Assembly (NCBI GenBank): GCA_008632985.1 | Contig: QPGO01000032.1 | Location: forward strand, 617,330-639,577 | Source: Psammoneis japonica | Taxonomy: Eukaryota | DNA length: 22,248 bases | Direction of reading: 5' to 3' | In this document: positions 2,217 through 19,867 of the stretch, in pieces | How positions within the stretch are numbered: position 1 is the stretch's first letter | Layout of the letters: every line of letters begins with the position of its first letter | Made by a program: the position numbers and the translations under genes | The notes under the pieces: generated by a model | What the model was told of the DNA's origin: nothing | The model's input: the letters and a program-made list of their open reading frames with translations, nothing else | Databases searched by the model: none

Positions 2217-2257
2217 TAATTCCTCACCACGGAAATCCTCACCAAATCCTCACCACG
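2217..2257 (+). repeat. Left terminal inverted repeat (3x TCCTCACCA subrepeat)
   Basis: TAATTCCTCACCACGGAAATCCTCACCAAATCCTCACCACG is the reverse complement of 15712-15752 with 2 mismatches. Confidence 0.92.
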
Positions 2258-4921
2258 CCTGTCGGCCATCCGTTCTCACGAATCCTTCCCACCGCTCCCG
2301 TACAATTTGTACTGAGCATTGCGTACAACAAATCATTTAACCCGATTTCTTTTCAGTCATTGTCTTTTATGCCATAGCCTAAATAATGCTCGCACATAGT
2401 GCTCCAAATTATTACGAGAGTCGCTAAGAAATGACCTTATTGAATGACATCCCATTCCTCTTCCTGGTATAAACCAACGTAGAAATCACGTAGCTACCTC
2501 CATTAGGACTTCACGAATTTTCCTACTCGAATCATCTGCTGCCGCGTATACACACCGTACAATGAATGCACCGCCGCGAAGTGCATGTCTCCATTGCTGT
2601 CGATGCTGCATGATTGTTGTTACAAGCCAAAACCTCCATTACCCGACAACAGCAGTCGATCTGGGATATGTCACGATGCGCTTGATTCAATGATGATGCT
2701 GGATTTGTGGTGTGTTGTCGACTTTGACCAATGGTGTGTGGCCGATTCGTGATGGCATGCGTGTTTCCTTTGCACACTCGACCGCATTGTTGCTTTCTGA
2801 ATTGCTTCTTCGACCTTCTTCTCTACATCATTCTATATATCACGGATCATTTCTACTCTTACAGACCTTGGCATGTTTGCCAATGATCCAGATGTGTTCT
2901 CCAGGAAACAATTTTTTGGTTTTGTGTTTGGCTGGAAACAACAAACAATGGACGATTGGGTTCCGTCGTTGGCATGTTAGATCATTTTAAACTTGGTGGG
3001 GTGTTGCATCATCTGTCACTGAATTGGCCTGTCCAGTGAATTCCCATGGAATGCCGAATGTCCCAAAAGGCGCTTGGATGGAATGCTGAGTGAGTCCCGA
3101 GTCCGAGACGGCAGGCTGGCTCAGTTGCAGCGGCAATGGAACAAGTCTTGCTGCGGATTCTGCCTTCATTTCGCATGTGACATGGTTGGTTTTGCTTTTT
3201 GATGCAAAAGTGACGATGGCAGTGGTGGCAAACAAAGCATTGGTAAAATCTTCGTCTGGCTCTGCGCGCGTTCCTAGAAATGTGCACTCGAGACAGGTGT
3301 CTTGAGCGTCTTCGGTGCAATGGAGCGATCGATGGATGACAACACCACTCATGTTTTTGGGCATTGATTGAGAAATAAGTTGCTCATCCGATTGAGCTCT
3401 TGGGATTGCAGGGAACACTTGAGGATTCAGAAGCTGGGCCTGCAACGTTTCGCGTTCTGGTCGTGATCCGGGTGCCAGTGGTGGTCTCTTGCACTTGTGG
3501 AGACTTGGGCAAGTGCGAATGGTGTGCTTTGGTTTTGCACAAGCACTGCATGCATTCTTCCTTTTCTTTGGCGGTTGAAGACATTCACCATCGTTGGAAG
3601 ATCTTGTGGAGCAACGGTTGCTCGGTGCACCGTGGTGTCGGTTGGAGCCATTTGATGCATGCATCGCGTCACGCCGGAGTTCTTGCCGGGACCTCTTGCG
3701 TCTTTGGCGGCTTGCTTGTGGCATTGCTTGCAGGATGCCAGGCAGTGGAGCAGCTGCTGGATTTTCAACAACTTCTGACATTGCAGTGTCGAAGGTGGCG
3801 TGGATGCTCATCCCGCGTCTCGCCCTGTCCGCCATTGTTTGGAGCAATGAGGAAAGAGCGGCCATGTTAGATTGGTCGCCTTGAACTAACCCAATGAGGT
3901 TGGATGCTTGGAATGTCAAATCTTGGCAGGTGTGAGATGCGGTGTTAGTTCCTCTTTGTTGCAGTCGTCTCCCGCCAAATCACCTGACACAGTTCTGTCA
4001 TCATCTTCGTCTGAGGTGATGTCCCGGTCGTCATCCAAGGTCGGCGAACTGTGTTGTTGGGTCTCTTTGCGGTCGTACAACAAATCTCCATCATTGGAAT
4101 CGCCATTGTTCAATGTCGTCTCATTGTTCTCATGATTTGGCATTGCGACTGAGTGTGCTTGCTCCGACAGCCATCGATTTGACCATTTGGATGTGTCGAG
4201 CTTGCCGTCGGCTTTGAGTTCGTGTCCGCATTGATGGCCAAAGGCCACTCTCTCATGACATGGGCATCGCATTCCTTGTTGGATCAACACAGATTCTTTG
4301 CAGGTTGACTCTTTCCCACAAGGCCAAACGTTCATTGCGTTGTTTTCTGCCATCACTGCTTGCAGCTTCCTGCTCTTGTTCATCGCAGCGATGTGCAAGT
4401 TCTTGCATGCACACCTGGAGAACGTGCTCTTCGCCAACTCATCATCCACACCAGCTTGACCTTGGTGGCTGGACTTGCACCTTGAGGAAACCACATGAAG
4501 ATTGTCCTCCTCTTTTCTCCGCTTGCGGGTGAGCATTTCCTGGCGCTCTGGCAGGTGCTTCAGGTGCTCGGCGACAGACCAGCTGGCGCCCGCACCAAGG
4601 TGAGCAACAATGCTTGCATGATTTTGTTCTGCAGCAACAGAACCCTCAAGATTTAGATTCATTTCCTGTTGCCGCAGATGACACCCGGCGCAATGCTCAG
4701 GCTTGTCATGAATGGAACAAAGCAGTTGCAGTTTTGCAGCATCGGCCTTCATGACCTCCTTGGCAGCATGGTGCGCAGCATCCCACTCCTCTTGTGTTTT
4801 GGATTGGAGCATTGCACAGAGTTGATTCCGGATTTGCATGCAGCACACCAATCCAAAGCCTTCGTCACTCGGGAATGCTTCCTCTGGCAAGTGACAGTGG
4901 TCTCCTTGTAGAATGATTTGA

Positions 4922-5267
4922 GGGACAATGGGAATCATTTGAAAATGTTGCAAGAGTCACAATTGGCATTTTACACAGGGAAAAACACCAAATCGTGCAG
5001 AAATGCGCACAATGTCATGCGAGAGGGTGACCAGTGCTGCCAACTTTTCGGGAACTCAATTGAAATGTCATCTGACCAAGGGCATTTTGATTTAGATGGT
5101 GAAGAGCAACACCCTTGGTCAGACAACATTTCAATTGATTTCCCGAGGAGTTGATGTTCGAATGTGGAAGGGTTGACAGACTGATGACAAACATTTCTGG
5201 TGCTCTCCTGCACAATTTCTACGTGATGACTCTGAGAGCCGAATGATTCCTGTTGGGCGTTGGTCCC
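4922..5267. mobile_element. Non-autonomous MITE-like insertion (346 bp) inside the transposase gene
   Basis: Ends GGGAC..GGAATCATT / AATGATTCC..GTCCC are inverted and flanked by TTTGA direct repeats (4917-4921, 5268-5272). Excision restores the frame ...FIDALQAQ|IILQGDHCH.... Confidence 0.85.
5041..5153. repeat. Internal 46-bp inverted repeat (5041-5086 / 5108-5153) with 21-nt spacer
   Basis: CAACTTTTCGGGAACTCAATTGAAATGTCATCTGACCAAGGGCATT pairs with AACACCCTTGGTCAGACAACATTTCAATTGATTTCCCGAGGAGTTG. Confidence 0.9.
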
Positions 5268-6303
5268 TTTGAGCTTGAAGTGCATCAATGAAGCATTGCG
5301 TCATGTGCTGGTCCGCAAATGTCATTCTCATGCTGTCAAAGCTCCAGCGTGGCTCCATTTCGGAAGCAGAAAGCAGCACCCAGCAATGGCACTTGTGTGC
5401 TTCTTCGATGCAAACACACTCTGTCACACATCGAACTTTCATTTCGCAGTCCTTTGCAGCGGGCCCAATGTGCGGCCATCCTTGATTGTTGCACTGCCTT
5501 TTCTGGCTGTCCAGGAACAGGATGTCACCACACCGAATCAAATTGCATCGCATTTCTGCTGTCATGTGGCAAACAGCTTCAGGGCGGCCGGTCGCATCAT
5601 GCTTCAAGCGGAAGTCAAAACCGATCAGTGTTTTCTTCAAATCTTGTAAATGGCAAAGCGCATCCCATGTCGAGCCGTCTTCTTGCATTGTCTTCTTTGG
5701 CATGTTTCTCAGATTGACTCTGGTCAAAGAGCTGTCAGCCACAACCAGCTCATTAGCCGCAATTGGTTTCTTGGATGCAAGTCGCTTTAAATCATCAAAG
5801 GACACTTCTTCGTCTTCCTCATTGTTCAGAATCCAGGTGGCTACATGGCTTCGGAAGTTGCTGATGCATTTTGCATCGGCATCAACATGCAAAGGCAAAC
5901 ACTTCATCAGTTTTGGGCGGAGGTCTTCTGCTTTCATGGATGGCTTGATTCGGAGATCCTCTACAATGCTTTGGAGCCCTGCCAAGCTAGGTTGAGTTCC
6001 GCCGCTTGCTTGTTTTGCCTTGCGATGGAACACTGTGTTCAGCTCGCACGTGTGCTGATGCACTGCTGCTGTCATCTTCACTTTGTAGAAAATGTCAGGT
6101 CTCAATTTGTTTGTGAAAGGATCCTTCTTCTTTTCCACAAAGCCATGCATGACACCAAACGGGCGTTTGCACTGGCTTTTCATGGTTGGGCCGACTTTTT
6201 GTTGATTTGATCGGTCAACAAGTGGCACAAGCTTCTTTTTCTTCTTGGATTCAGAGAAGTGGCAACCAGTGGTCTTGCGCTCATGCACGCCCATGGCCCC
6301 CCA

Positions 6304-6579
6304 AGACAGGATTTGAACAGGATTTAGGTGCGCGCGAAATGTCGCGCGCTGTTCAGTTTACCGCGCACAGTTTTGTGTGCTTCAGTTCCGCGCGTTCGCG
6401 CGCGATGCAGTTTGCTTTCGAGCCACAAGGCTCACAAGAACAATGACAGCAGCCCGATCACACCGACTCACACGTCTTTCGGCTCCTGTGACGGTCTCTG
6501 AGCGGAGACTCATCTGCCATTTAGACAGCAGCAAGGAGTCATTGTTTGAATTCTTGCCATTTGCCTTCAATTTCTGTCA
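6304..6579 (+). repeat. 5' LTR (276 bp, AGACAG...CTGTCA)
   Basis: Gap-free alignment with 13087-13362, 21 mismatches by manual count. Confidence 0.96.
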
Positions 6580-6590
6580 GATTAACAGTC
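6580..6590 (+). promoter_or_regulatory. Putative primer-binding site GATTAACAGTC, complementary to a tRNA-Asn(GTT) anticodon arm
   Basis: Directly follows the LTR-terminal CA. Reverse complement GA-CT-GTT-AA-TC has anticodon-loop geometry. Confidence 0.6.
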
Positions 6591-7518
6591 TTGCTCATTG
6601 TCAACCCATTGAGCAACCGCCATCGTCGTCGTTGATTTACCAACGACGCCATTTCAATTCCACGTGGACCTCCGTGTGTGTTCTACATACATCGGCAAGT
6701 CTGCGCACATTCAATGCCAGGGCATCGGCAGGAAGTTAACGTCACCGTCAAGTCTCCTCACCGCTGGACATCTGGATTGATTGTGCTGCCTTTGATCGCT
6801 GAAGACATGCATTCAACGGTCATGTCCAAGTCTATCCTTGATCCTCATCCCTTGATGTGCCTGTTCATCGGTTGACGGTCAAGAACCCCACATGTTCAAG
6901 GATCTTCGTCGCTGAAGACACACACATGTGTGCATGTCTTCACGGCCAAGAACCTGCACCCACTCTTCGGACTGCGGTTTTGCTGCCACTCTACAAGCAC
7001 ACCGAGTCCATTGCACCTGATCTGCCCCGGACTGCTGGTGCTCCACAGTTCTGCCAGGTCCACAAGGATGACTGTGAGAGCAAGCAGCCATGATTGCAGC
7101 CTGCGTTGGGGCGAGGGTGCTTTCCCGCGTTTGTTCGTTCGTCCACAGCGCCTGACGCCTGTGTCAACTGGCCAGCCTGATCGGGAAATCCAACCGACAT
7201 AAAACAAGAACGGTTCGGGGGTCTTGTCCACCTCCAGTCAGCTCACCTGCAGGGGTTTACAACCCGCTGCTCCGCTCGCAAGCAACCCAAAGCACCACTG
7301 GCTGCGGGTTCGGACGTGCCGGCACAACTCTACGGACCGGACAGGAAGTTTAGCACTTGACAACGAACGGGATGGCAAAGCCCGGCGACTTCTGATTTTA
7401 AGATAGATCAAGATTTCAAGTCAAGTCTGTTTCAAGTCAAGTCCATTCTCACCCAAGCTTCAAGCCCACCTTTGCTTCCCAACAAGAATTGCTTGTCCTG
7501 ACACCACTTTTGTCTGCC

Positions 7519-10500
7519 ATGGTTCTCACTCGTCAGCAACAAACCGATGGTTTCGAGCACGTTGTTGGAACCGTGCTTGCCCAAGGTGCTGGGAGCCCTC
7601 TCCATTTGGCTTTGGCACAAGACGGCACGGACTCACATCAAGAACTGTTCACGTTCACACCGTCCCAAATCGACTCGCTTGAGTGCGACAACGGCACCAA
7701 TGTGATCCCTTTGCCCTGTGGTTATAAGAACATGTCAGCAGCTCTGGTTGGTCTGCACATTGTCAAAGCACACAAAGGTCTTGACGTTGCCAATGACTCC
7801 TCGTTGTTCACGCATGACGAGTTCCTTGCCTGCCGCCTCAGCCCCGACTGCATGTCTTCTGTGTCCATCGGCAGCTCACCCCTCGCACCTCCGCATGTCA
7901 CCAACCCGACCAAGGCACGCGACCCGGTGCGGGACTTCAAGCGAGGCATCAAGCGTGATCCCACTGCTTTCACGGCTCTCAAATCTGACAAGCAGTGGCA
8001 CACTTGGCACACCTCACTTGTGGCACAAGCCCGTGCCCAAGACGTCGAGTGCATTCTAGACTCGTCGTACAAACCGACCAGCCCCGAAGACAAACTGCTC
8101 TTTGCTGAACAGCAAAAGCACATGTTCGCCGTCTTCGAATGCATCCTTCTCACCGACAAGGGCAAGGCTCTCATCCGCGAAAATGTGGGGTCTTCTGACG
8201 CACAGACCGTCTGCCGTGCCTTGTCTGAGTGCACGCTCGCCTCCACCCGTGCATCTGTCGAGTCCTCCACCCTGCCAATGTGCCTTGCCACCGCACGTGT
8301 TGGTGATGGCACTTGGAAAGGTCCGACCCACGGGTTCATCCTTCATTGGCAAGATCAGTTGCGCAAGTGCGAGGCACTCATCCCAGCCAGTGACCACTTC
8401 TCTGAAGGACAGAAGCGCGTCATGCTCGAGAATGCCGTGCACCCTGTCGAGGAACTCCGTGCTGTCAAGAACCAAGCTGATCAGCATCGTGCGCAGAGTG
8501 GCAAGAGCCTCACATGCGATCAACACTGTGGCTTGCTCCTCTCCGTGGCAGCCCAATGCGACAGTGCGTTTCAACCCAAGACGACACCTCAAGCTCCCCG
8601 CCGCGCCACATGCGCACACGACGTCTGCTCCGAGGAACCGTCCGACGATGTGTTCTACGACATTGACAGTGACATTGACATCCTTCAGGCCAATGCTGCC
8701 TGCACCCGTGGTCCCAGCCTCACCGGTGACCAATGGAAACGTCTCCCTCCCGACCACCAACGGATTTGGGATTCGTTGCCCCATTCCTCCAAGGCGATCA
8801 TCCTTGAGCATTCTCGTCCGCCTCCCCGTAACCCGCGAGACAGCAACTGCCATGAGTCCATTACGGCCAACCTTCACGACCAACGCCTTGGGAGTGACGG
8901 TGATGTCAACTTGTCCAACACGACTCCTGCTGACTCTGGTGACTCCGCTCCAAATGTGGGTGCCACTTCGGATGATCCCATCCTGGCGCACCTCACCAAG
9001 CGCAAGCCACTGCACCGTCTGTTGTCTCCTAACCAAGCCCCCAATGCCAGTCGACTGGGGCCATCCGCCGCTCCCTCTGCCCCGCCAGCTTCTGCCGATG
9101 ACATGGAACTTAACGGCCGCACTTGCCGCCGCGTCAACAACCACAATGTCATTTGCTCTGCCTCTGCTCATCGCTCCACATGCACTGGCGCTCTAGTCGA
9201 TCGTGGGGCCAACGGCGGCATTGCTGGCAACGACGTTCGCGTCATTGCACGCACCTCTCGCCAAGTCGACGTTCAGGGCATTGACGACCATCAATTGGTG
9301 GACATCCCCATTGTCACTGCTGGTGCCGTCATTGAGACCCAGCGTGGTCCCGTCATCGCCATCCTCCATCAGTGCGCATGCACGGGCAAGGGCAAGACCA
9401 TCCACTCCTGCGGCCAGCTCGAATGGCACAAACAGGATGTCAACGATCGCTCTGTCAAGGTGCCCAACGGCTTGCAATGTGTTGCCACTCCTGATGGCCA
9501 TGTCATCCCCATTGACATCAAGGCCGGCCTGCCTCATGTTGCCATGCGACCTTGCACTGACGCCGAATGGGACACCCTGCCCCATGTCATCCTCACCGGT
9601 GATGACACATGGGATCCTTCCGTCCTCGATCACTCTGTCGCTGATGATGACCAGTGGTGCGACGCGATCTCTGACCTGCAGGACGATCCCACTGCCAACC
9701 TGTTTGACGAATGCGGCAACTGCCGTCATCATGTCGTTGTCAACGAGACCATCATGTCTGCTTCCTTGTCTGCCGATCACGCGTCCACCCTCGATGATCA
9801 CCTCATTCCGAACGACGACGTGTTCTGCGAGTGTCATCCACACGCGATTGACCCCAAGGACGACGACGTCCCGCCCCCGGAGCGCACTGCACAGCCCAAG
9901 GACCCGCCCTTCGAGTCTCTTCGGCCTTGCTTTGGCTTCCCACCTGCCGACACGGTCCGTCATGCTTTTGACTGCACCACGCAGTGCGCCCGCATGCCCA
10001 CCGGTGCACACCTTAGGAAGGCCTGCAAATCACCCAACCCCACCCTCAATGTGCACCGCCGCAACGAGCCTGTTGCCACTGACACCGTTTGTGCCGACAC
10101 CCCGGCCGTCGACTCTGGTTGCACCAGTGCCCAACTGTTTGTTGGCACCGAGTCTACCGTCACTGACGTCTGCGGCACCAAGACGGACAAAGAGTTTGTC
10201 AACACACTCGAGGATCAGATCCGTGAGCGTGGTGCCCCATCCAAACTCATTGGCGACCGCGCTCAAGTTGAGATCAGCAACAAAGTGCTCGGGATCCTGT
10301 GGGCCCTCTTCATCTCCAGCTGGCAAAGTGAGCCTCACCAGCAACACCAAAACTTTGCCGAGCGTCGACACCAGACCGTGAAGCGCATGGCGAACACTGT
10401 CATGGATCGTTTTGGTTCGCCCGCCCACACATGGCTGCTGGTGCTCATGCATGTGTGCTTCACACTCAACCACACAGCATCCCCACGTCTCCACTGGCAC

Positions 10501-13040
10501 ACGCCCCTCGAGACTCTCACTGGCTCCACCCCGGACATCAGCCCATTGCTTCGCTTTCACTGGTGGGAACCCGTGTGCTTCCACCTCGATGACTCCGATT
10601 GGCCGCCCGAATCCCGTGAGTTGCGTGGACGCTTCGTTGGCATTGCTGAGCACGTCGGCCACCAGATGACCTTCAAGATTCTCTCTAACGAGACTCAGAA
10701 GATCCTCTGCCGGTCCAACGTCCACTCCGCTGCCACCGATCCTGCCGTTCGAAACCTGCGTCTTGATCCTCCTGATGGGGAGCCACCTGAACCCATCATC
10801 AAATCTCGCCATGATGACAACCCCGTCGATTCTCCTGATGGGGAGATCAGGACACCCAAGATGCCAGTTTTTGATCCGCAAGACATCATTGGACGCACCT
10901 TCCTCATGCAGCCACAAGAGGACGGACAACGCCACAGAGCTCGCATCGTCAAGGCCGTCGAAGACCACGAATGGAAAGTGAACGGCAATCCCGAGCTCAC
11001 TAAGTTCGTCTGCTCTGTCAACAATGACGAACACGAGGAAGTCCTTGCCTGCAATGACATCATGAATCACATTGAGCAAGAAGACGAAGACACTGCCATT
11101 TGGAAATTTCGATGCATCGTGTCACACGAAGGACCTCTGAAGCCTCACGACCCAACCTGGAAAGGCTCAAGCTACAACATCATGCTTGAATGGGAAAGTG
11201 GGGAGATCACGTCCGAGCCTCTTGCCATCATCGCCAAGGACGACCCCATCACCTGCGCCATCTGTGCATGAGAGAACGGGCTCCTCGACACGGATGGCTG
11301 GAAGCGGTTCCGCACCATCGCGAGGCGCCAAAAGAAGCTGTTTCGCATGGCCAACCAAGCCAAGCTTCGCTCCTTCCGCACTGCACCTCACTGCAAGTGT
11401 GGATGCGAAGTTCCCCGGAACTGCAAACACGCCATGTCACTAGATGAATGCAACGGCAACCGCAAATGGGGAGACGCAACTAATCTCGAGATGGACCAAC
11501 TCGACGAATACAAAGTCTTCCATGACTGCGGGCCCTTTGAGTCTTCCACTCCTCCTGCGGGACACAAGAAGATCCGAGTGCACCTGGTGTACGACGTGAC
11601 GACGGACACCTCACGGATGCACCCATCGACAGTGTCTGCTCCGGAGCAGTCTCCCTCCATGGCCTTCGGCTGATGATTTTCCTGGCCGAACTCAACGAGT
11701 TGGAGACATGGGCCACCGACATTGGCAATGCCTGCCTTGAAGCCACCACCAAGGAGAAGCTTTACATTGCAGCCAGACCCGAATTTGGCAAACTCGAAGG
11801 ACACATCCTTGTCATCCACAAGGCCCTGTGTGGACTGCGCAGCTCCGGTCTCCGCTGGCATGAGCGCTTCGCCGACTGCCTGCGAGCTGAAGGCTTCTTC
11901 CCCTGCCGCGCCGAACCCGACATTTGGATGTGCAGGAACGGCGACCACTGTGAATGCATTGCCGTTTATGTGGATGACCTCGCCATTGCCATGAAGGACC
12001 CTCAATCTTTCGTCGACACTCTCACGGAAAAGTGCAAGTTCAAGCTCAAGGGTGCGGGACCCATTGAATTCCATCTGGGTTGCGACTTTTCCCGGGATCC
12101 CGACGGAACCTTGTGCCTGTCTCCGCGCAAGTACATCGAGCGCATGGTCGACAGCTGCGCCCGACTGTTTGGGGAGAAACCTGCCACCAACGCCCTGTCA
12201 CCTCTGGAGAAGGGTGACCACCCCGAACTGGACACTTCCGAACTGCTGGGACCCGATGGCATTCACAAGTTCCAGTCTCTTGTTGGTTCACTCCAATGGG
12301 CAGTGTCCCTTGGTCGAATTGACATCACCATGGCCGTCATGTCACTCTCTAGCTTCTGAGCTGCGCCCCGTCAAGGCCACTTGGATCGTGCCAAACGCGT
12401 CTGTGGGCACCTCTCCAAGATGCGACACGGTGCTCTCCGCGTTCGCACGGAAGAGCCCGACTGTTCGGATCTCCCTGCTCCGGCCTGTGAATGGATGCAT
12501 TCCGTGTGCGGCGAAGCAGAAGAGATGATCCCGAAGGACGCTCCACCGCCCCTTGGCAAGTTCGTCACTGCCACCCACTGTGTCGATGCAAACTTGCACC
12601 ATTGCATGCTCACCGGACGCTCTGTCATGGGAATGCTCCACTTCCTCAACAAATTCCCGGCTGATTGGTTCTCTAAGAAGCAAGCCACCGTGGAGACTGC
12701 AACCTGCGGGTCTGAATTTGTTGCCGCAAGGACTTGTGTCGAGCAGATTGTTGACCTGCGCATCACCCTGCGCTGCCTTGGCGTCCCGATCCGCAATGTC
12801 AGTTGCATGTTCGGTGACAACAAGTCGGTTGTAGACAGTGCCACCATCCCGCACTCCAAGTTGCACAAGCGACACACCGCACTGTCGTTCCACCGTGTGC
12901 GTGAGGCAATTGCCTCTGGTTGCCTTGAGCTCCACTTCATCGAAGGCTCCCGCAACCCTGCTGACATCCTCAGCAAGCATTGGGGTTGCTCCCAAATCTG
13001 GGACCTTCTCCGCCCCCTCATGTTCTGGAACTTCATTTCA
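7519..13040 (+). pseudogene. gag-pol polyprotein pseudogene (Gag, protease, integrase, chromo-like segment, RT, RNase H); 3' end approximate
   Basis: ATG 7519; Gag DFKRGIKRD; PR LVDRGANGG (~9190); IN VATDT / GDRAQVE / QNFAERR (~10070-10370); RT KALCGL and YVDD (11967-11978); RH VDANL, GSEFVAA, GDNKSV, NPADILSK. Lesions: TGA 11269-11271, frameshifting deletion at 11599/11600, TGA 12357-12359. Confidence 0.95.
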
Positions 13041-13080
13041 TCCGAAGTCGAATCTGTTTCTGTGACTCCTCAAGCAAACT

Positions 13081-13086
13081 GGGGAG
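13081..13086 (+). promoter_or_regulatory. Short polypurine tract (GGGGAG)
   Basis: Abuts the TG start of the 3' LTR. Confidence 0.65.
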
Positions 13087-13362
13087 TGACAGGATTTGAA
13101 CAGGATTTGGGTGCGCGCGAAATGTCGCGCGCTGTTTAGTTCACCGCACACAGTTTTGTGTGCTTTAGTTCCGCGCGTTCGCGCGCGATGCAGTTTGCTT
13201 TCGAGCCACAAGGCTCACAAGAACAACAACAGTGGCCCGATTGTGCCGACTTGCACGTCTTTCGGCTCCTGTGATGGTCTCTGAGCGGAGACTCATCTGC
13301 TGTTTAGACAGCAGCAAGGAGTTGTTGTTTGAATTCTTGCCATTTGCCTTCAATTTCTGTCA
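13087..13362 (+). repeat. 3' LTR (276 bp, TGACAG...CTGTCA)
   Basis: Canonical TG...CA ends with a 6-bp terminal inverted repeat, followed by TSD CCCCA. Confidence 0.96.
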
Positions 13363-13679
13363 CCCCACATGTCCAGAAATTCCTTTGCGGCCTGCACAAG
13401 CTGCGTGTGACTGGCAAACTGTCGGCCGATGGGGAACAGCAGAGCAGCCTTTTGCTCGAAAGCTGTTTTGCAACGCTCGTTGTCTCTGTCACGACTCATC
13501 TCCCCATTGGAAGGAGCGTGATTTCGCATCTCATCCTCCAAGCCAGTGGTGACCCAGTTTTTGCCTTGCAGTTCCTTGCTTTGTAGCTTGAGCTCGTCAT
13601 GCGACGTGGTGTCCGCACCGCATTGATCGAGCCAGCAAGGCTCGTACAACGTTTTGCTCGTCCCAGCAACACCACTCAT
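13363..13679 (-). pseudogene. MULE transposase, N-terminal part
   Basis: ATG at 13679 (MSGVAG...FPIGRQFAS..LVQAAKEFLDMWG). Removing the copia plus one TSD gives atg tgg ggg gcc atg ggc gtg (MWGAMGV), in frame with ORF 5131..6294. Confidence 0.85.
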
Positions 13680-13938
13680 TGTTGTGTTGGTTGGCAAGCA
13701 AAGCTTGCAGCAACAAGAAAAACAAGAGTGAGACAGTGCCTTGTCCATCGTGACAAAATGTGGCCGATCTCAAAACTCACCAACACCTTTTCATTGTTGT
13801 TGGATTCAGTGCTCACTTGTGTGGTGACGGCAGGGACCATGTCCTTCACGGCTGGAGGGGAGAATGTCTTGATGATGCAAGCAAGCACAGGGGGAGTAAA
13901 TTGTGAGATTGCTTTTTACAAAACAAAACTAAGTCTGG

Positions 13939-14818
13939 TCAAGCACAACAACACACCTTTCCTTTTGCACTTGATGGACTTAAATGTTCACAATGGCCGC
14001 CACCGTCATGGGTTGTGGTGATGGAATTGGCTGGAGGAGACAGCCAAGTGTCTCTTACAAATGACAACTGCACTTTTCCATTGGAACAATGGCATGTGGC
14101 CGTGTTTTTGTTGCTTCCCATTCCACAGCAGACAATCAATCGCTCATGCTTGAGAGCGACAATGGTGCTGCACACGTTTGCATCACACCAATGACGTTTG
14201 CCACAACCAGAATTGAAGTCAACCCCGAGCAAGCAGTTTTAGAAATCGAGCTTTCCGGCTTGCACCAGTGTCATGCTCGTTCCTGTGGTCGACAACAAAT
14301 TCCGCGATGACTTTCCCGTCACATGCAACCGCCAAGAGACCTCTGTCCTCACCTGCACCATCATCCAAGGGCAGACCGCACAAGCCCTCAAAGTTCTGTG
14401 CAGCAAAACCATGTGTGTGTTTTCGGAAACCAGTCATGTCCTTGTTGTGGGTGCCTTTTTTGATTGAGCTGGCCTCCTCCAGTCCCTTCAGCACAGCGCA
14501 GTGTCCCCAGTTGCCGTCAGCAGGGACAGCAACAGAGCGACCGATTTTTGCCAGGTCGGCAACATGCTCAAGGCCAAGCGTGGACGTCAGAGAAAAGTCA
14601 GGTGTTTTTTCAAGAGTGATGACAACAGAGTCATCATCCAGTGAGCAGCAGCCGGGTTCGACTTTGGCCTGCTTGCGGTCGGCATCGTCATCCAATGAGC
14701 AGCCGGGTTCGGCGTTGTCATCGACGACAGCCAACGCCTTCATGTTGCTCTCATAAAACACTTCATGATGAGGGCTCACGTGAATCTTGTGAGGGTCGTG
14801 AAGGAGCCGCATGGTCAT
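13939..14818 (-). pseudogene. OTU-like cysteine protease (deubiquitinase-like) pseudogene carried by the MULE; frameshift near 14225
   Basis: VAVPADGNWGHCAV resembles the OTU Cys box (VxxDGNCxYxA) with C->W. Downstream, in a shifted frame, HW.DAN and HDGGGHCEHL resemble the Trp motif and His box (GHYxxL). Start and end are uncertain. Confidence 0.6.
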
Positions 14819-14836
14819 GGTGTGGTGCTGAGCTGC

Positions 14837-14874
14837 CTTGAGGGTCGTCTTGAGGGTCGTCTTGAGGGTCGTCT
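14837..14874. repeat. 3 x 12-bp tandem repeat CTTGAGGGTCGT
   Basis: Three exact copies. Confidence 0.95.
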
Positions 14875-14994
14875 GACAGAGCAGAAATGTGTTGCTGTGC
14901 TGCCAGCATGGGCAAGAGACACTGCAATCTACCAGCAGAATCTCAGGGCACGAACAAAATGGCAAAGCACCGCCACACAACAGCGCAACCAATG

Positions 14995-15499
14995 CACTCG
15001 TTGATGCCAGCGGATTTGAGTCTTCAGCAAGTGACTCTCGCATCGTCGACGCCTCGTCGCCACAAAGTGTGGTCTTCTGACGACAACCCCAAATTGTCAA
15101 GGTGCAAGTCGTTCCCGACAACGACCCAAAATTGTTCAGGTCGTGTCTCAAACCGCCTTTGCAGATTAGAAGGCAACTCAACTAGAGTCAAAAACAAGAC
15201 TGCACCGTGGACGACTCGAGAGACTCCAGCGCAAATCAGCTGAAATGCTCGTTGACGCCAGCAGATTTGAGTCTTTGGCAAGTGACTCTCGCATCGTTGA
15301 TGCCTCGTTGCCACAAAGTGTGGTCTTCTGACGACAACCCCAAATTGTCAAGGTGCAAGTCGCTCCCGACAACGACCCAAAATTGTTCAGGTCGTGTCTC
15401 AAACCGCCTTTGCAGATCAGAAGGCAACTCAACTGGAGCCACCAAAAACAAGACAACACCGTGGACGACTCGAGAGACTGCAACGCAAATCAATTGAAA
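14995..15499. repeat. Head-to-tail ~250-bp tandem duplication (14995-15245, 15246-15499)
   Basis: Copies align end to end with mostly transition differences and one 3-bp indel. Confidence 0.95.
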
Positions 15500-15711
15500 C
15501 AAAAAGTGTGACAATCGTGAGGTGCCGCCGTAAAGCGGCGCGCCACAGAGGACGACGGTTGAAGACAGTCGAAGATGCAGACGTCACATGCAGACAATGA
15601 CCGGGGCTGAGGTGTTCACTCAAGTGATGGACTTTGTTCCAGTGCTCGGACAGCCGTTGATGTTGTGATGTGGCAGTTCGCATGTGACGCCAAGACATTT
15701 AACGAAATTTC

Positions 15712-15752
15712 CGTGGTGAGGATTTGGTGAGGATCTCTGTGGTGAGGAATTA
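15712..15752 (-). repeat. Right terminal inverted repeat
   Basis: CGTGGTGAGGATTTGGTGAGGATCTCTGTGGTGAGGAATTA. Confidence 0.92.
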
Positions 15753-17486: not shown

Positions 17487-18809
17487 TCACTTTTGACATT
17501 GAGGACTCAATTTCCCAACAATATCCTTTCCGTGGACAAGACCCTCCTTGTCTGCTTCTTGTATAGCATCCCACAATTTGAAATCCATCCAATATGCTTG
17601 TCTCACCTGCTCCATCAGTTCTGGGGTGTAGTACTCGTCCATTTTCTTTTGAGAGTCTTTGTGATGACTATAAGTATCCATTCCTCCCTCGAGTTGTTGA
17701 AATCCTGGCGCTTCGCCCGCTAACCAAGAATTCAAATCCGGAGGCGGAATTGCAGCATTGGATCGAAGTCTACTATCGTGCGATACGCGATAGTGCTTCC
17801 CGAACGACTCCCACATGCTTACATTTTGTAGCAACGCTTTTGTATGATGAGCCGCACGATCAAGGATACCAATGTATTCAAATTGGGGCATAAATTCAGA
17901 TAGTCCACAAGACCACGCTTGAGGCCTCCAATGGGGGTCGGTGTACCAAGTGAGACCGCTACCCTTGTCGTTTTCATTTCGATTAGACACATATGCTACA
18001 AACTCTGCAAATGTTGCATTCTTTCCCTTCATCTTTCTTGGTTTGTTCTTTATCTTGTCCAGATATGCCGACAGTAAACGTTCCGCAGGATTTCGAATAA
18101 AGACAGCCTTGGTCCAGTTTTGCCATACTTGCTCCTGCAAGATTCGAGTAGTGCGGTCAAAGAATAATCGGCCAGTATCAGGCTTTTGATGTGGAAACGA
18201 TTGATAGTCTTTGGATCCAATTGTAAAGCGTAGAAACTGTAGCCATTGGGTAAAGCCGGCCTTTGGTATACCGCAAAAGGCCAGCTTGCCTTGGGGAAAC
18301 AAAATCATGCGGTCAAACCGCCCAGAGCCTCCTTCCATCGTATACAAACTACATCCCAATGGAAACGATTCAAGTAGGACGCTGAAATTGGATCCATCCG
18401 CTTGACACCAATTTACAGAAGGAGTTAGAGCAGCATTGGCGATTGTACAGCTCTCTTTGTGATGATTCAGTTCCTCTCGCGTTTGCGGCCTCCAGTAAGC
18501 AAACGTGGCAGCCTCTTGCTCCGAAGAGAATGGATAGATGGAATTGTTGCACCCCTTTTCTGTAAAGCAAGTACTGAAGAATGATGCTTTTTTGCCATCA
18601 CAGCAGCCGTAAAACGTGACAGGCTTCAGAGCATCCGGAAGATCTCGCGGAGCACTGAACGTTCCTATGGAGTGAAGGAAACCGTGATGATTGGAGTTCG
18701 TCTGTGAGTTCAGAAGAATCCACTGGCCGACGCATGATAACGCTATCAGTGTAAATAAAATACAACGCCATGAGGCGAACGGGGAATTCGTCTCCCGTCG
18801 TGGCGCCAT
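17487..18809 (-). CDS. Golgi-type carbohydrate sulfotransferase (Sulfotransfer_2 / HNK-1ST-CHST8-14-like)
   Basis: N-terminal anchor; 5'-PSB motif FCGIPKAGFTQW; 3'-PB motif FIRNPAERLLSAYLDK; DPHWRPQ; C-terminal YWMDFKLW. Confidence 0.92.
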   Translation of the reverse strand: MAPRRETNSPFASWRCILFTLIALSCVGQWILLNSQTNSNHHGFLHSIGTFSAPRDLPDALKPVTFYGCCDGKKASFFSTCFTEKGCNNSIYPFSSEQEAATFAYWRPQTREELNHHKESCTIANAALTPSVNWCQADGSNFSVLLESFPLGCSLYTMEGGSGRFDRMILFPQGKLAFCGIPKAGFTQWLQFLRFTIGSKDYQSFPHQKPDTGRLFFDRTTRILQEQVWQNWTKAVFIRNPAERLLSAYLDKIKNKPRKMKGKNATFAEFVAYVSNRNENDKGSGLTWYTDPHWRPQAWSCGLSEFMPQFEYIGILDRAAHHTKALLQNVSMWESFGKHYRVSHDSRLRSNAAIPPPDLNSWLAGEAPGFQQLEGGMDTYSHHKDSQKKMDEYYTPELMEQVRQAYWMDFKLWDAIQEADKEGLVHGKDIVGKLSPQCQK

Positions 18810-19867
18810 GGCCTCATACGCAGCGATGGAGAATAATTATGGCATCTGGCATCTCATCACTTTGCAAACCCGGCAAAACTTCAGAAAAATCCAACGGACA
18901 TTTTTTTCCTCACGCCTGGCTGTACGTAGTACGTTTGGTACGGCGTCACACGTAAAGCACGAGCTCGAATTTAATGTTTTAGTAACCCGGAACGTTGCAA
19001 TCGCTGCAATCGTTGCATTTGCACTTTTTTCCCCGTGTAAATAACACGTGTTTTTGTCAGGAGGTGGGGACATCGGGGGACATTTGGGGACACACCACCA
19101 CGAGCTCTTTCGTGTAGAGCAGTACTGAGTTCTACACGTGCACGACATTCGGCATTTTTCTTTTCACTGCCACCATGACATTGGTTGATTTGCAACGCCG
19201 CTCTGCTTGTCTAACGGCAGAGTGGGTGCTTCGACACCTACCCGTTTCGAAGATAAAATGTAAATAGCCGTAGCTTCCACTGCAGCACACTGCGTTGCAA
19301 ACCACAGCAGATGCGTGGTGCGGTTTGAACGATATGGAATCCTTTCAACGAATTCTAGAGCATACGACGCTGAAGCGTACAAGACAAAACAAGAAGAAAA
19401 ACGAACGAACTACTGTTGGAGCTTGTTTCAGCGCAAGCCTCTGTTTTGGCATAGCTGGAGTGTTCCGAATCAATTACGTCCTGTGATTTCTCGGGAAGAT
19501 CGGCAAAAGCGACGTTGCCCCTGCAAGAACGGCCCTCGTGCCTGTGCCACAGGTGCTTCACGTTATACTACAGAAACGCAACTATCGAGGGAGAAAGACG
19601 ATTGCTCGTCGAGAGGGTAGAAACTAGAGTAGGCGAGGATTGATCTCATGCAAGATAGATGCGTGCCGTCACCATACAGTACGCACATCTATCGCGAAAA
19701 GGCGAAGGGAAGGAAACGCACTTCAGTAGCTAGATTTTCACGGCGACGCTTTGTCAAAGGGGAAGGGGTTTGCACTCTACAACTAGAAACGCAGCATTTA
19801 AACCCTCAGTATTACAATACGAAGACGATTTTTCAATTCAGAAGCAATCATCGGGCCTCACTATTTA

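What the first reader, a model, noticed from the sequence alone, without database searches (positions are those of the whole stretch)
6304..13362. LTR pair as internal control: mutations are post-insertion, on both strands, and start from TpA
LTRs are identical at integration. Of 21 mismatches in 276 bp, 14 come from 7 sites reading CA in one LTR and TG in the other (e.g. gatCACAccg vs gatTGTGccg, implying ancestral TATA). Four are TA vs TG/CA, two are CG vs CA/TG, and one is a transversion. CA/TG pairs could also come from CpG, but the CGCGCG tracts are intact in both LTRs and the TA intermediates are visible, so TA is the parsimonious ancestor. Both outcomes occur within one LTR, which argues against strand-biased RNA editing or RT error. 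LTR-divergence dating (~7.6%) would overestimate the age of this insertion.
Basis: partly seen in the sequence, partly recalled or inferred. Interest (0 to 1): 0.8.

Follow-up and report, generated by a model that had tools for sequence, protein, structure and literature searches.

The report
TpA-targeted hypermutation of diatom transposons
Two nested transposons in a diatom genome have had about four fifths of their TA dinucleotides converted to TG or CA after they inserted, a repeat-directed mutation process that runs opposite to fungal RIP and makes LTR-based dating unreliable.

Summary
The two 276-bp LTRs (6304-6579, 13087-13362; target duplication CCCCA) differ at 21 positions: 7 CA/TG dinucleotide sites, 4 TA-vs-CA/TG, 2 CG-vs-CA/TG and 1 transversion.

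The TpA-ancestor reading is supported.
- A uniform TA-decay model fits the LTR counts (p=0.84 per site per LTR). A CpG model is rejected (P=1e-8): 20 CpGs stay intact in both LTRs.
- Of 55 codons where 60 related Copia proteins have Tyr (TAY), this copy has Cys 35, His 7, Tyr 7.
- Where shown, other genomic copies mostly read T or A at this copy's CA/TG sites. The seven LTR sites themselves were only partly checked.

The process covers a sharply bounded block (about 2990-15752, TpA obs/exp about 0.1 against 0.7 in the flanks). The block also holds the Mutator-like DNA transposon that the Copia inserted into, so the process acts on DNA.

New details: strand-coordinated patches, a TAY preference, and minor CpG decay.

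The closest precedent is a 2026 preprint on Bigelowiella natans. My paper searches found no diatom report. The enzyme is unknown; adenine deamination is an inference.

The parts
2990..15752 (.). TpA-depleted domain. TpA obs/exp is 0.09-0.13, CA and TG 1.4-1.8, CpG 0.65-0.86. The flanks have TpA 0.67-0.70.
   Evidence: The right edge is sharp at 15752: 2 TA per 250 bp, then 27. The left edge is patchy between 2668 and 2990.
2217..2257 (+). Left 41-nt terminal inverted repeat of the outer (Mutator-like) element.
   Evidence: 95% complementary to 15712-15752. No target duplication was found.
15712..15752 (-). Right terminal inverted repeat. Its outer end coincides with the edge of the TpA-depleted domain.
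3059..6303 (-). Decayed Mutator-like (MULE) transposase coding region, interrupted by the Copia insertion.
   Evidence: 530 homologues of ORF 5131-6357(-), best E=8e-83. ZSWIM1-3 RNaseH-like domain in 3 of 9 homologues; tblastn matches span 3059-13712 on the minus strand. Tyr is 0.18% against 3.35% in homologues.
13368..13712 (-). Continuation of the MULE-like coding region on the far side of the Copia insertion.
   Evidence: tblastn extents reach 13712.
6299..6303 (.). Target-site duplication CCCCA, left copy.
13363..13367 (.). Target-site duplication CCCCA, right copy.
6304..6579 (+). 5' LTR, 276 bp. Its TA-class changes are CA 8 : TG 1.
13087..13362 (+). 3' LTR, 276 bp. Its TA-class changes are TG 7 : CA 2.
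6444..6541 (.). Span holding the seven CA/TG sites in the 5' LTR: 6444/45, 6450/51, 6459/60, 6461/62, 6469/70, 6518/19, 6540/41. The partner sites in the 3' LTR lie 6783 bases further on.
6580..13086 (+). Internal region of a Ty1/Copia-type retrotransposon. Gag-protease-integrase ORF at 7402-11271; reverse transcriptase and RNase H in a shifted frame from about 11600.
   Evidence: ORF; RVT_2, E=1e-18; 609 homologues, best 60% identity; frames.
11599..11600 (+). Place where other copies carry 34 extra letters. It is a private deletion that shifts the reading frame of this copy.
   Evidence: tables 5c and 7; the frame changes between 11563 and 11637.
14997..15499 (+). Two tandem copies of about 252 bp inside the outer element.

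Best explanation
After insertion, a DNA-level mutation process converted TpA to TpG or CpA (A:T to G:C transitions at the A of TpA, on either strand). It acted across one transposon domain: a Mutator-like DNA transposon with a Copia retrotransposon nested in it. It stopped at the element's right end and left the neighbouring host genes alone. About 80% of the TA sites in each copy were hit, so at many sites the two LTRs were hit independently and now read CA against TG. Hits come in short same-strand patches and favour TA followed by a pyrimidine. Shown here: the direction, the context, the domain limits, the action on DNA and the patchiness. Inferred: that the chemistry is enzymatic deamination of adenine to hypoxanthine on transiently single-stranded DNA, that silencing marks or repeat recognition guide it to the domain, and that it serves as a genome defence. 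I put about 0.8 on the shown part and about 0.45 on the deaminase mechanism.
For: LTR pair: 18 of 21 mismatched bases are TA-class. A uniform TA-decay model fits (p=0.84, chi-square 0.79, P=0.37), while a CpG model fails (chi-square 32, P=1.4e-8).

Outgroup direction test in the Copia: of 55 codons where at least 60% of the aligned homologues (60 used; at least 20 aligned at each codon) have Tyr, the window has Cys 35, His 7, Phe 5, Trp 1, Tyr 7. At the stricter 80% threshold, 13 columns give Cys 8, His 2, Phe 2, Tyr 1. Tyr is 0.31% of the window protein against 3.88% in homologues. Of 170 conserved codons that differ, 55 are single TA>TG/CA steps, 17-19 are CpG-type and about 16 are other transitions.

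DNA transposon: the MULE-like ORFs have Tyr 0.18% against 3.35%. Of 22 Tyr-plurality codons, the window has His 9, Cys 6, Phe 4, Tyr 1, other 2.

Domain: TpA obs/exp is 0.09-0.13 inside and 0.67-0.70 outside, with the edge at the inverted-repeat end. The flanking sulfotransferase ORF has a normal Tyr content of 3.3%.

Other copies: of the 35 variant places shown inside the element, 27 are window CA/TG where other copies read T or A.

Context: surviving TAs are YTAR in 35 of 77 cases against 68 of 427 in the flanks (P=4e-9).

Patchiness: 32 runs against 44 expected among 101 inferred events (P=0.004). The two LTRs are skewed in opposite directions (Fisher P=0.015).

Precedent: mutation-accumulation lines of Bigelowiella natans show hypermutation only at TpA, giving TpG or CpA, in integrated viral DNA (preprint 10.64898/2026.01.13.699255; abstract, Results and Discussion read).
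Against: - The family state at the seven LTR sites was seen only for 6459 and 6461, and without the neighbouring base. The output showed 40 of 891 variant places, so CG at those sites is not directly excluded.
- CpG-type decay is also present: 2 of 21 LTR mismatches, 17-19 coding changes, and 5 sites in the tandem repeat.
- Nine A>G coding changes lie outside TpA. At 9640 and 10260 the window has CG where all other copies shown have CA/TG.
- The left edge of the depleted block lies 450-770 bp inside the left inverted repeat, and no target duplication flanks the outer element.
- At Tyr codons in the Copia body, sense-strand A>G outnumbers T>C by 35:7. The TAY preference explains only part of this, so a contribution from RNA-level editing before integration is not excluded for the body.
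- None of 79 related Copia loci from metagenomes shows this depletion (TpA obs/exp 0.49-1.02), so it is not general among diatom Copia elements.
- No enzyme, base modification or whole-genome data could be examined (no genome is held for this window).
Confidence: 0.8

Rival explanations
1. The seven CA/TG sites descend from methylated CpG. Each LTR lost the CpG by 5-methylcytosine deamination on a different strand.
For: CG to TG and CG to CA each take one step. CpG-type changes do occur in this domain: 2 LTR sites, 17-19 coding changes, and CpG obs/exp of 0.65-0.86 against about 1.0 in the flanks. A subset of related elements in metagenomes shows classic CpG decay.
Against: Twenty CpGs are intact in both LTRs, including 6 isolated ones lying among the CA/TG sites, and only 2 are single-hit. 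The uniform model is rejected at P=1.4e-8. This reading does not explain the 4 TA-vs-CA/TG sites, the TpA obs/exp of about 0.1, or the Tyr to Cys/His changes.
Confidence: 0.04
2. The changes arose before integration, by editing of the retrotransposon RNA (ADAR-like, A to I next to U) or by reverse-transcription errors, and were then copied into DNA.
For: At Tyr codons of the Copia body, sense-strand A>G dominates 35:7. A 5' U is the known ADAR preference (stated in the preprint's Discussion).
Against: Both LTRs derive from one template, so their differences must come after integration. The 5' LTR is hit mainly on the opposite strand. The host DNA transposon, which has no RNA intermediate, is depleted equally. 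The depleted block ends at the outer element's end, not at the Copia ends.
Confidence: 0.03
3. The LTRs differ because one of them was overwritten by ectopic gene conversion from another, differently mutated copy of this abundant family. The pair would then not be a clean post-insertion clock.
For: The family has many copies: 14,528 contigs of one run lay on the stretch, and other copies vary at the same sites.
Against: The strand skew of each LTR continues into its neighbourhood: the body next to the 3' LTR is also TG-dominated. The identical target duplication excludes inter-element recombination, though not conversion. Even under this rival, TA>CA/TG mutation of DNA copies is still required.
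Confidence: 0.08
4. Sequencing or assembly artefact, such as systematic miscalls at a modified base.
For: Modified adenines can cause systematic A>G miscalls in some long-read base callers (recalled, not tested here).
Against: Contigs of public runs reproduce the depleted sequence. One example is a 704-letter contig over 2720-3423 with 3 differences, and the 3' LTR variant also appears in these contigs. Those runs may come from the same sample as the window. The changes behave like inherited, copy-specific variants.
Confidence: 0.03
5. TpA avoidance is an intrinsic, selected property of these elements, for example to escape an RNA-level restriction factor.
For: UpA suppression exists in many RNAs (paper PMC3829696; search listing only).
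Against: This copy is dead: it has a 34-bp frameshifting deletion, and conserved Tyr codons have been replaced. The LTR differences arose after insertion. Related elements have TpA obs/exp of 0.49-1.02.
Confidence: 0.02

Closest known systems
TpA hypermutation of integrated viral DNA in Bigelowiella natans (bioRxiv 10.64898/2026.01.13.699255)
   Same: Almost only A:T to G:C transitions. They occur only at TpA and give TpG or CpA depending on the strand. [quoted passage not shown] An adenine deaminase is proposed there but not shown.
   Different: That case is a chlorarachniophyte; this is a diatom. There the measured targets are giant-virus and virophage insertions with TpA only about halved. 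Here the targets are a DNA transposon and a nested LTR retrotransposon near saturation (obs/exp about 0.1). Rates there were measured in mutation-accumulation lines; here they are inferred from an LTR pair and outgroups. The sections I read (abstract, Results, Discussion) do not report the TAY preference or the same-strand patches.
[quoted passage not shown]
   Same: A transition-only process with a dinucleotide context. It acts on DNA, is limited to repeated or transposon sequence, and ruins coding capacity.
   Different: The direction is opposite. RIP turns CpA/TpG into TpA, lowers GC and creates stop codons. Here TpA is destroyed, GC rises (0.56 against 0.46) and TAA/TAG almost vanish.
Methylated-CpG deamination decay of silenced transposons
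   Same: A palindromic dinucleotide is lost to TG/CA on either strand, and only in the silenced element.
   Different: The dinucleotide lost here is TpA, not CpG. CpG is only mildly reduced.
APOBEC or ADAR editing of retroelements before integration
   Same: Clustered, strand-coordinated transitions with a neighbouring-base preference, proposed to come from a deaminase.
   Different: Those act on cDNA or RNA before integration and leave the two LTRs alike or one strand only. Here the LTRs diverged after integration, both strands are hit, and a DNA transposon is affected.

Membership tests
TpA>TpG/CpA hypermutation of foreign DNA (B. natans type) | The changes are almost exclusively A:T to G:C transitions. 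| tested here: met
   18 of 21 mismatched LTR bases. 55 of about 91 coding changes explained by a single transition, the largest class.
TpA>TpG/CpA hypermutation of foreign DNA (B. natans type) | The changes are restricted to the TpA dinucleotide. | tested here: met
   Tyr codons changed to Cys or His in 42 of 55 cases. TpA obs/exp is about 0.1. There are 9 A>G coding changes outside TpA.
TpA>TpG/CpA hypermutation of foreign DNA (B. natans type) | The process is confined to a block of foreign or mobile DNA, with a normal rate in the flanks. | tested here: met
   The right edge lies at the inverted-repeat end; the left edge is less exact.
TpA>TpG/CpA hypermutation of foreign DNA (B. natans type) | A raised de novo rate measured across generations. 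| not testable with these tools
   This needs mutation-accumulation or pedigree data. The only hint is that the window has TA at 3245 and 5963 where a run's contig has TG.
Ty1/Copia LTR retrotransposon | Paired LTRs ending TG...CA, a 5-bp target duplication, an RVT_2 reverse transcriptase, and integrase placed before reverse transcriptase. | tested here: met
Mutator-like (MULE) DNA transposon | A MULE-type RNase H-like transposase, terminal inverted repeats and a 9-11 bp target duplication. | tested here: inconclusive
   There are transposase homologues. The ZSWIM1-3 RNaseH-like domain appears in 3 of 9 homologues, only one above Pfam's cut-off. A 41-nt inverted repeat is present. No target duplication was found. 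The window's own ORFs have no Pfam hit.
Fungal RIP | C to T at CpA, producing a TpA excess and a fall in GC. | tested here: not met
   The direction is opposite.
CpG methylation decay as the main cause | Strong CpG depletion that matches the TG/CA excess, with TpA unaffected. | tested here: not met
   CpG obs/exp is 0.86 in the Copia, 20 CpGs are intact in both LTRs, and TpA is 0.13.

The most novel reading that the evidence does not exclude
Diatoms, or at least this lineage, have a RIP-like genome defence that runs in reverse. A targeted DNA adenine deaminase, or a deamination-prone adenine modification at palindromic TpA, erases TpA (preferring TAY) in short single-strand patches across silenced transposon domains. 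It destroys Tyr codons while removing stop codons. Its presence in both a stramenopile and a rhizarian would point to an old, shared system within the SAR supergroup.
Probability: 0.35. Interest if true: 0.85.

Novelty: new member of a known kind. Interest (0 to 1): 0.74.

Why it matters
- It would be a second, independent lineage with TpA-specific A:T to G:C hypermutation of invading DNA. Here the targets are ordinary transposons rather than viral insertions, which suggests a widespread eukaryotic defence or mutational mode that has gone unnoticed.
- LTR-divergence dating in this genome would be inflated about seven-fold (7.6% against 1.1%).
- Affected transposons become GC-richer and lose their stop codons. 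That produces long false ORFs, disturbs gene prediction and hides the elements from homology searches.
- The TAY preference and the same-strand patches give concrete signatures for finding the enzyme.

Tried and rejected
- **Whole genome.** None is held for this window, so other LTR copies could not be collected directly.
- **Metagenome scan.** An exact scan of metagenome contigs with a 22-nt LTR stretch found nothing.
- **Public runs.** Laying public runs showed only 40 of 891 variant places and no phased neighbours. The family state at the seven LTR sites therefore remains incompletely tested.
- **Pfam on the outer element.** Searches on 23 outer-element ORFs gave no hit above cut-off. A word-based protein search with ORF 3916-4956(-) found nothing. 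Only the exhaustive HMMER search identified the outer element.
- **Small inversions.** CA and TG are reverse complements, so 2-4 bp inversions were considered. This is rejected because it does not explain the TA-vs-CA/TG sites or the Tyr codon changes.
- **GC-biased gene conversion.** Rejected: it is not TpA-specific and would not saturate a sharply bounded block.
- **Transcription-based account of the opposite LTR skews.** The idea was that the non-template strand is hit and U3 of the 5' LTR is untranscribed. It does not fit the two hits in the downstream part of the LTR, beyond a TATA-like motif whose promoter role I only guessed, so it is left as speculation.
- **Tandem repeat as a second control.** The repeat at 14997-15499 is not clean, because its duplication time is unknown and its differences are mixed.
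- **Literature.** Six searches found no report of this process in diatoms. Subscription journals are largely outside that library.
Full report
**What is there**

The window is nuclear DNA of a diatom. A flanking sulfotransferase ORF (17487-18836, minus strand) has its best matches, at 36-54% identity, among diatom and unnamed marine proteins.

Positions 6304-13362 are a Ty1/Copia-type LTR retrotransposon.
- It has two ungapped 276-bp LTRs with TG(A)...CA ends, flanked by the 5-bp target duplication CCCCA.
- It has a 1289-codon gag-protease-integrase ORF and an RVT_2 reverse transcriptase in a shifted frame.
- The search returned 609 homologues at up to 60% identity.
- This copy is dead. Other copies carry 34 extra letters at 11599/11600, exactly where the reading frame changes.

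**The observation**

There are 21 mismatches in 276 bp:
- seven sites reading CA in one LTR and TG in the other;
- four sites reading TA against CA or TG;
- two sites reading CG against CA or TG;
- one transversion, at the first LTR base.

Twenty CpGs are intact in both LTRs, and six of them are isolated CpGs lying among the CA/TG sites. In 100,000 simulations of 20 random transitions, the number of CA/TG sites never exceeded 3.

**Which ancestor**

I treated each candidate ancestral dinucleotide as decaying independently in each LTR with probability p and an equal chance of either direction.
- The TA model fits. Observed counts for intact-in-both, one-hit and hit-in-different-directions are 1, 4 and 7. 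Expected counts are 0.5, 5.0 and 6.5 at p=0.84 (P=0.37).
- The CpG model fails. Observed counts are 20, 2 and 7 against expected 14.5, 13.1 and 1.5 (P=1.4e-8).

An independent test of direction uses outgroups. I aligned 60 related Copia polyproteins to the internal region with tblastn and took the 55 codons where at least 60% of the aligned homologues (at least 20 aligned at each codon) have Tyr (TAY). At those codons the window reads Cys (TGY) 35, His (CAY) 7, Phe 5, Trp 1 and Tyr 7. By contrast, 57 of 67 Arg-consensus codons are kept and 8 show CpG-type change.

With an 80% threshold on a MAFFT alignment of 50 homologues, 13 Tyr columns give Cys 8, His 2, Phe 2 and Tyr 1. Tyr makes up 0.31% of the window protein against 3.88% in the homologues.

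Of 170 conserved codons that differ from the homologue majority:
- 55 are single TA>TG/CA steps (44 TG, 11 CA);
- 17-19 are CpG-type;
- about 16 are other transitions;
- 45 are transversions and 34 need two or more changes, which I take to be ordinary family divergence.

So TA is the ancestor in this element, and CpG decay is a real but minor second process.

**Other copies**

No genome is held for this window. One public run holds 59% of the element's sampled words. When it was laid at 80% likeness or more, 14,528 of its contigs fell on the stretch, almost all of them inside the Copia. The family therefore has many copies, although depth is not a copy number.

Of the 35 variant places shown inside the element:
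- 27 are places where the window has CA or TG and other copies read T (for C) or A (for G), in 13-95% of depth;
- 6 have window CA/TG against CG in other copies;
- 2 have window CG against CA/TG in other copies.

Two of the seven LTR sites appear in that table. At 6459 and 6461, T makes up 48% and 37% of depth. The table shows only 40 of 891 places and does not phase neighbouring bases, so TA cannot be told from TG at those two places.

Some loose ends of contigs do show TA where the window has CA, for example in the stretch behind 6640, which covers the window's CA sites at 6650 and 6661, and just before 6411.

**Beyond the LTRs**

The LTR pair is part of a larger picture.
- TpA obs/exp is 0.09-0.13 from about 2990 to 15752 and 0.67-0.70 in both flanks.
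- CA and TG are at 1.4-1.8 inside the block, and GC is raised.
- TAA and TAG are about six-fold rarer inside the block. This is why long spurious ORFs appear in all frames.

The right edge is abrupt and coincides with the outer end of a 41-nt terminal inverted repeat (2217-2257 and 15712-15752).

The sequence around the Copia is a decayed Mutator-like transposase on the minus strand.
- It has 530 homologues, best E=8e-83.
- A ZSWIM1-3 RNaseH-like domain is found in 3 of 9 homologues tested.
- Matches run from 3059 across the insertion to 13712.
- Its ORFs have Tyr 0.18% against 3.35% in homologues.
- Of 22 Tyr-plurality codons, the window has His 9, Cys 6, Phe 4, Tyr 1 and other 2.

A DNA transposon has no RNA intermediate, so the process acts on DNA. 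The flanking host ORF has a normal Tyr content of 3.3%.

**New details**

1. Strand patches. The 5' LTR changed mostly T>C (8:1) and the 3' LTR mostly A>G (7:2), at the same sites and in the same sequence contexts (Fisher P=0.015). Over 101 inferred events there are 32 runs against 44 expected (P=0.004). A former (TA)n tract at 6920-6936 now reads CA repeats on its left and TG repeats on its right.
2. Extended motif. Surviving TAs are enriched for pyrimidine-TA-purine (35 of 77 against 68 of 427 in the flanks) and depleted for purine-TA-pyrimidine (7 of 77 against 120 of 427) (P=4e-9). TAT is almost eliminated. The target is therefore best described as T-A-pyrimidine on the strand of the mutated A. 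This partly explains the 35:7 excess of Cys over His at Tyr codons.
3. Scope. 0 of 79 related Copia loci from metagenomes have TpA obs/exp below 0.49. Some of them show classic CpG decay instead. The process is therefore not general for this element group.

**Mechanism**

Shown here:
- The changes arose after insertion.
- They occur on DNA.
- They go from TpA (favouring TAY) to TpG or CpA.
- They are limited to the transposon domain.
- They fall in same-strand patches.
- The LTR pair gives a per-site hit probability of about 0.84 at TA, against about 0.6% at all other positions (3 changes in about 530 site-copies).

Inferred: enzymatic deamination of adenine to hypoxanthine on transiently single-stranded DNA, guided by silencing marks or repeat recognition. 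The mild CpG loss suggests that the domain is also cytosine-methylated. An alternative chemistry is a deamination-prone adenine modification at the palindromic TpA. None of this could be tested here.

**Comparison with what is known**

The closest precedent is a 2026 preprint on Bigelowiella natans (10.64898/2026.01.13.699255; I read the abstract, Results and Discussion). In its mutation-accumulation lines, 230 of 231 mutations in two integrated viral regions were A>G or T>C, and all of these fell on TpA. The preprint does not mention diatoms.

Six searches of the paper library found no report of this process in diatoms. Fungal RIP is the mirror image of this process. CpG decay and pre-integration editing fail the tests above.

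**Verdict**

LTR dating would be inflated from 1.1% to 7.6%.

I class the finding as a new member of a very recently described kind, in a new lineage and on transposons, with added anatomy (the motif, the patches and the domain edge).

Open points:
- the phased family state at the seven sites;
- the left edge of the depleted block, which lies 450-770 bp inside the inverted repeat;
- the missing target duplication of the outer element;
- the enzyme.

Noticed in passing
window 11599-11600: Other copies of the Copia family carry 34 extra letters here. This copy therefore has a private 34-bp deletion, which accounts for the frame change between integrase and reverse transcriptase.
   Followed up: partly
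window 2217-2989: The first 450 bp inside the left inverted repeat are not TpA-depleted (26 TA, obs/exp 0.78). An island of six TAs survives at 2824-2860, around a TATATA motif, inside sequence that is otherwise depleted. The left edge of the mutated block therefore does not match the element end.
   Followed up: partly
window 6920-6936: A tract that other copies appear to read as alternating T and A is CA repeats on its left and TG repeats on its right in this copy. This is a switch of the mutated strand within 16 bases.
   Followed up: partly
window 5041-5153: A 42-nt inverted repeat pair with a 29-nt spacer lies where the summed contig depth jumps about 20-fold above its surroundings (5711 against about 250-560). 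It may be a small, separately repeated (MITE-like) insert.
   Followed up: no
window 3245 and 5963: The window reads TA where the only contig of the public run reads TG. A further difference at 2393 is CA against TA. These may be allelic or strain differences of the same TA class, which hints that the process is recent.
   Followed up: no
window 14997-15499: Two tandem copies of about 252 bp inside the outer element differ at 5 CG-vs-TG/CA sites, one CA/TG site, two TA-vs-CA/TG sites and about 8 other columns. CpG-type change is relatively more common here than in the LTR pair.
   Followed up: partly
L027, L015, L019, L059, L067 (metagenome loci): Some related Copia elements from other organisms have CpG obs/exp of 0.22-0.25 with CA+TG at 1.4-1.6 and near-normal TpA. 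This is classic methylation decay, in contrast with the window's copy.
   Followed up: no
window 9640 and 10260: The window has CG where all other copies shown have CA or TG. These are A>G changes outside the TpA context, or else subfamily differences.
   Followed up: no
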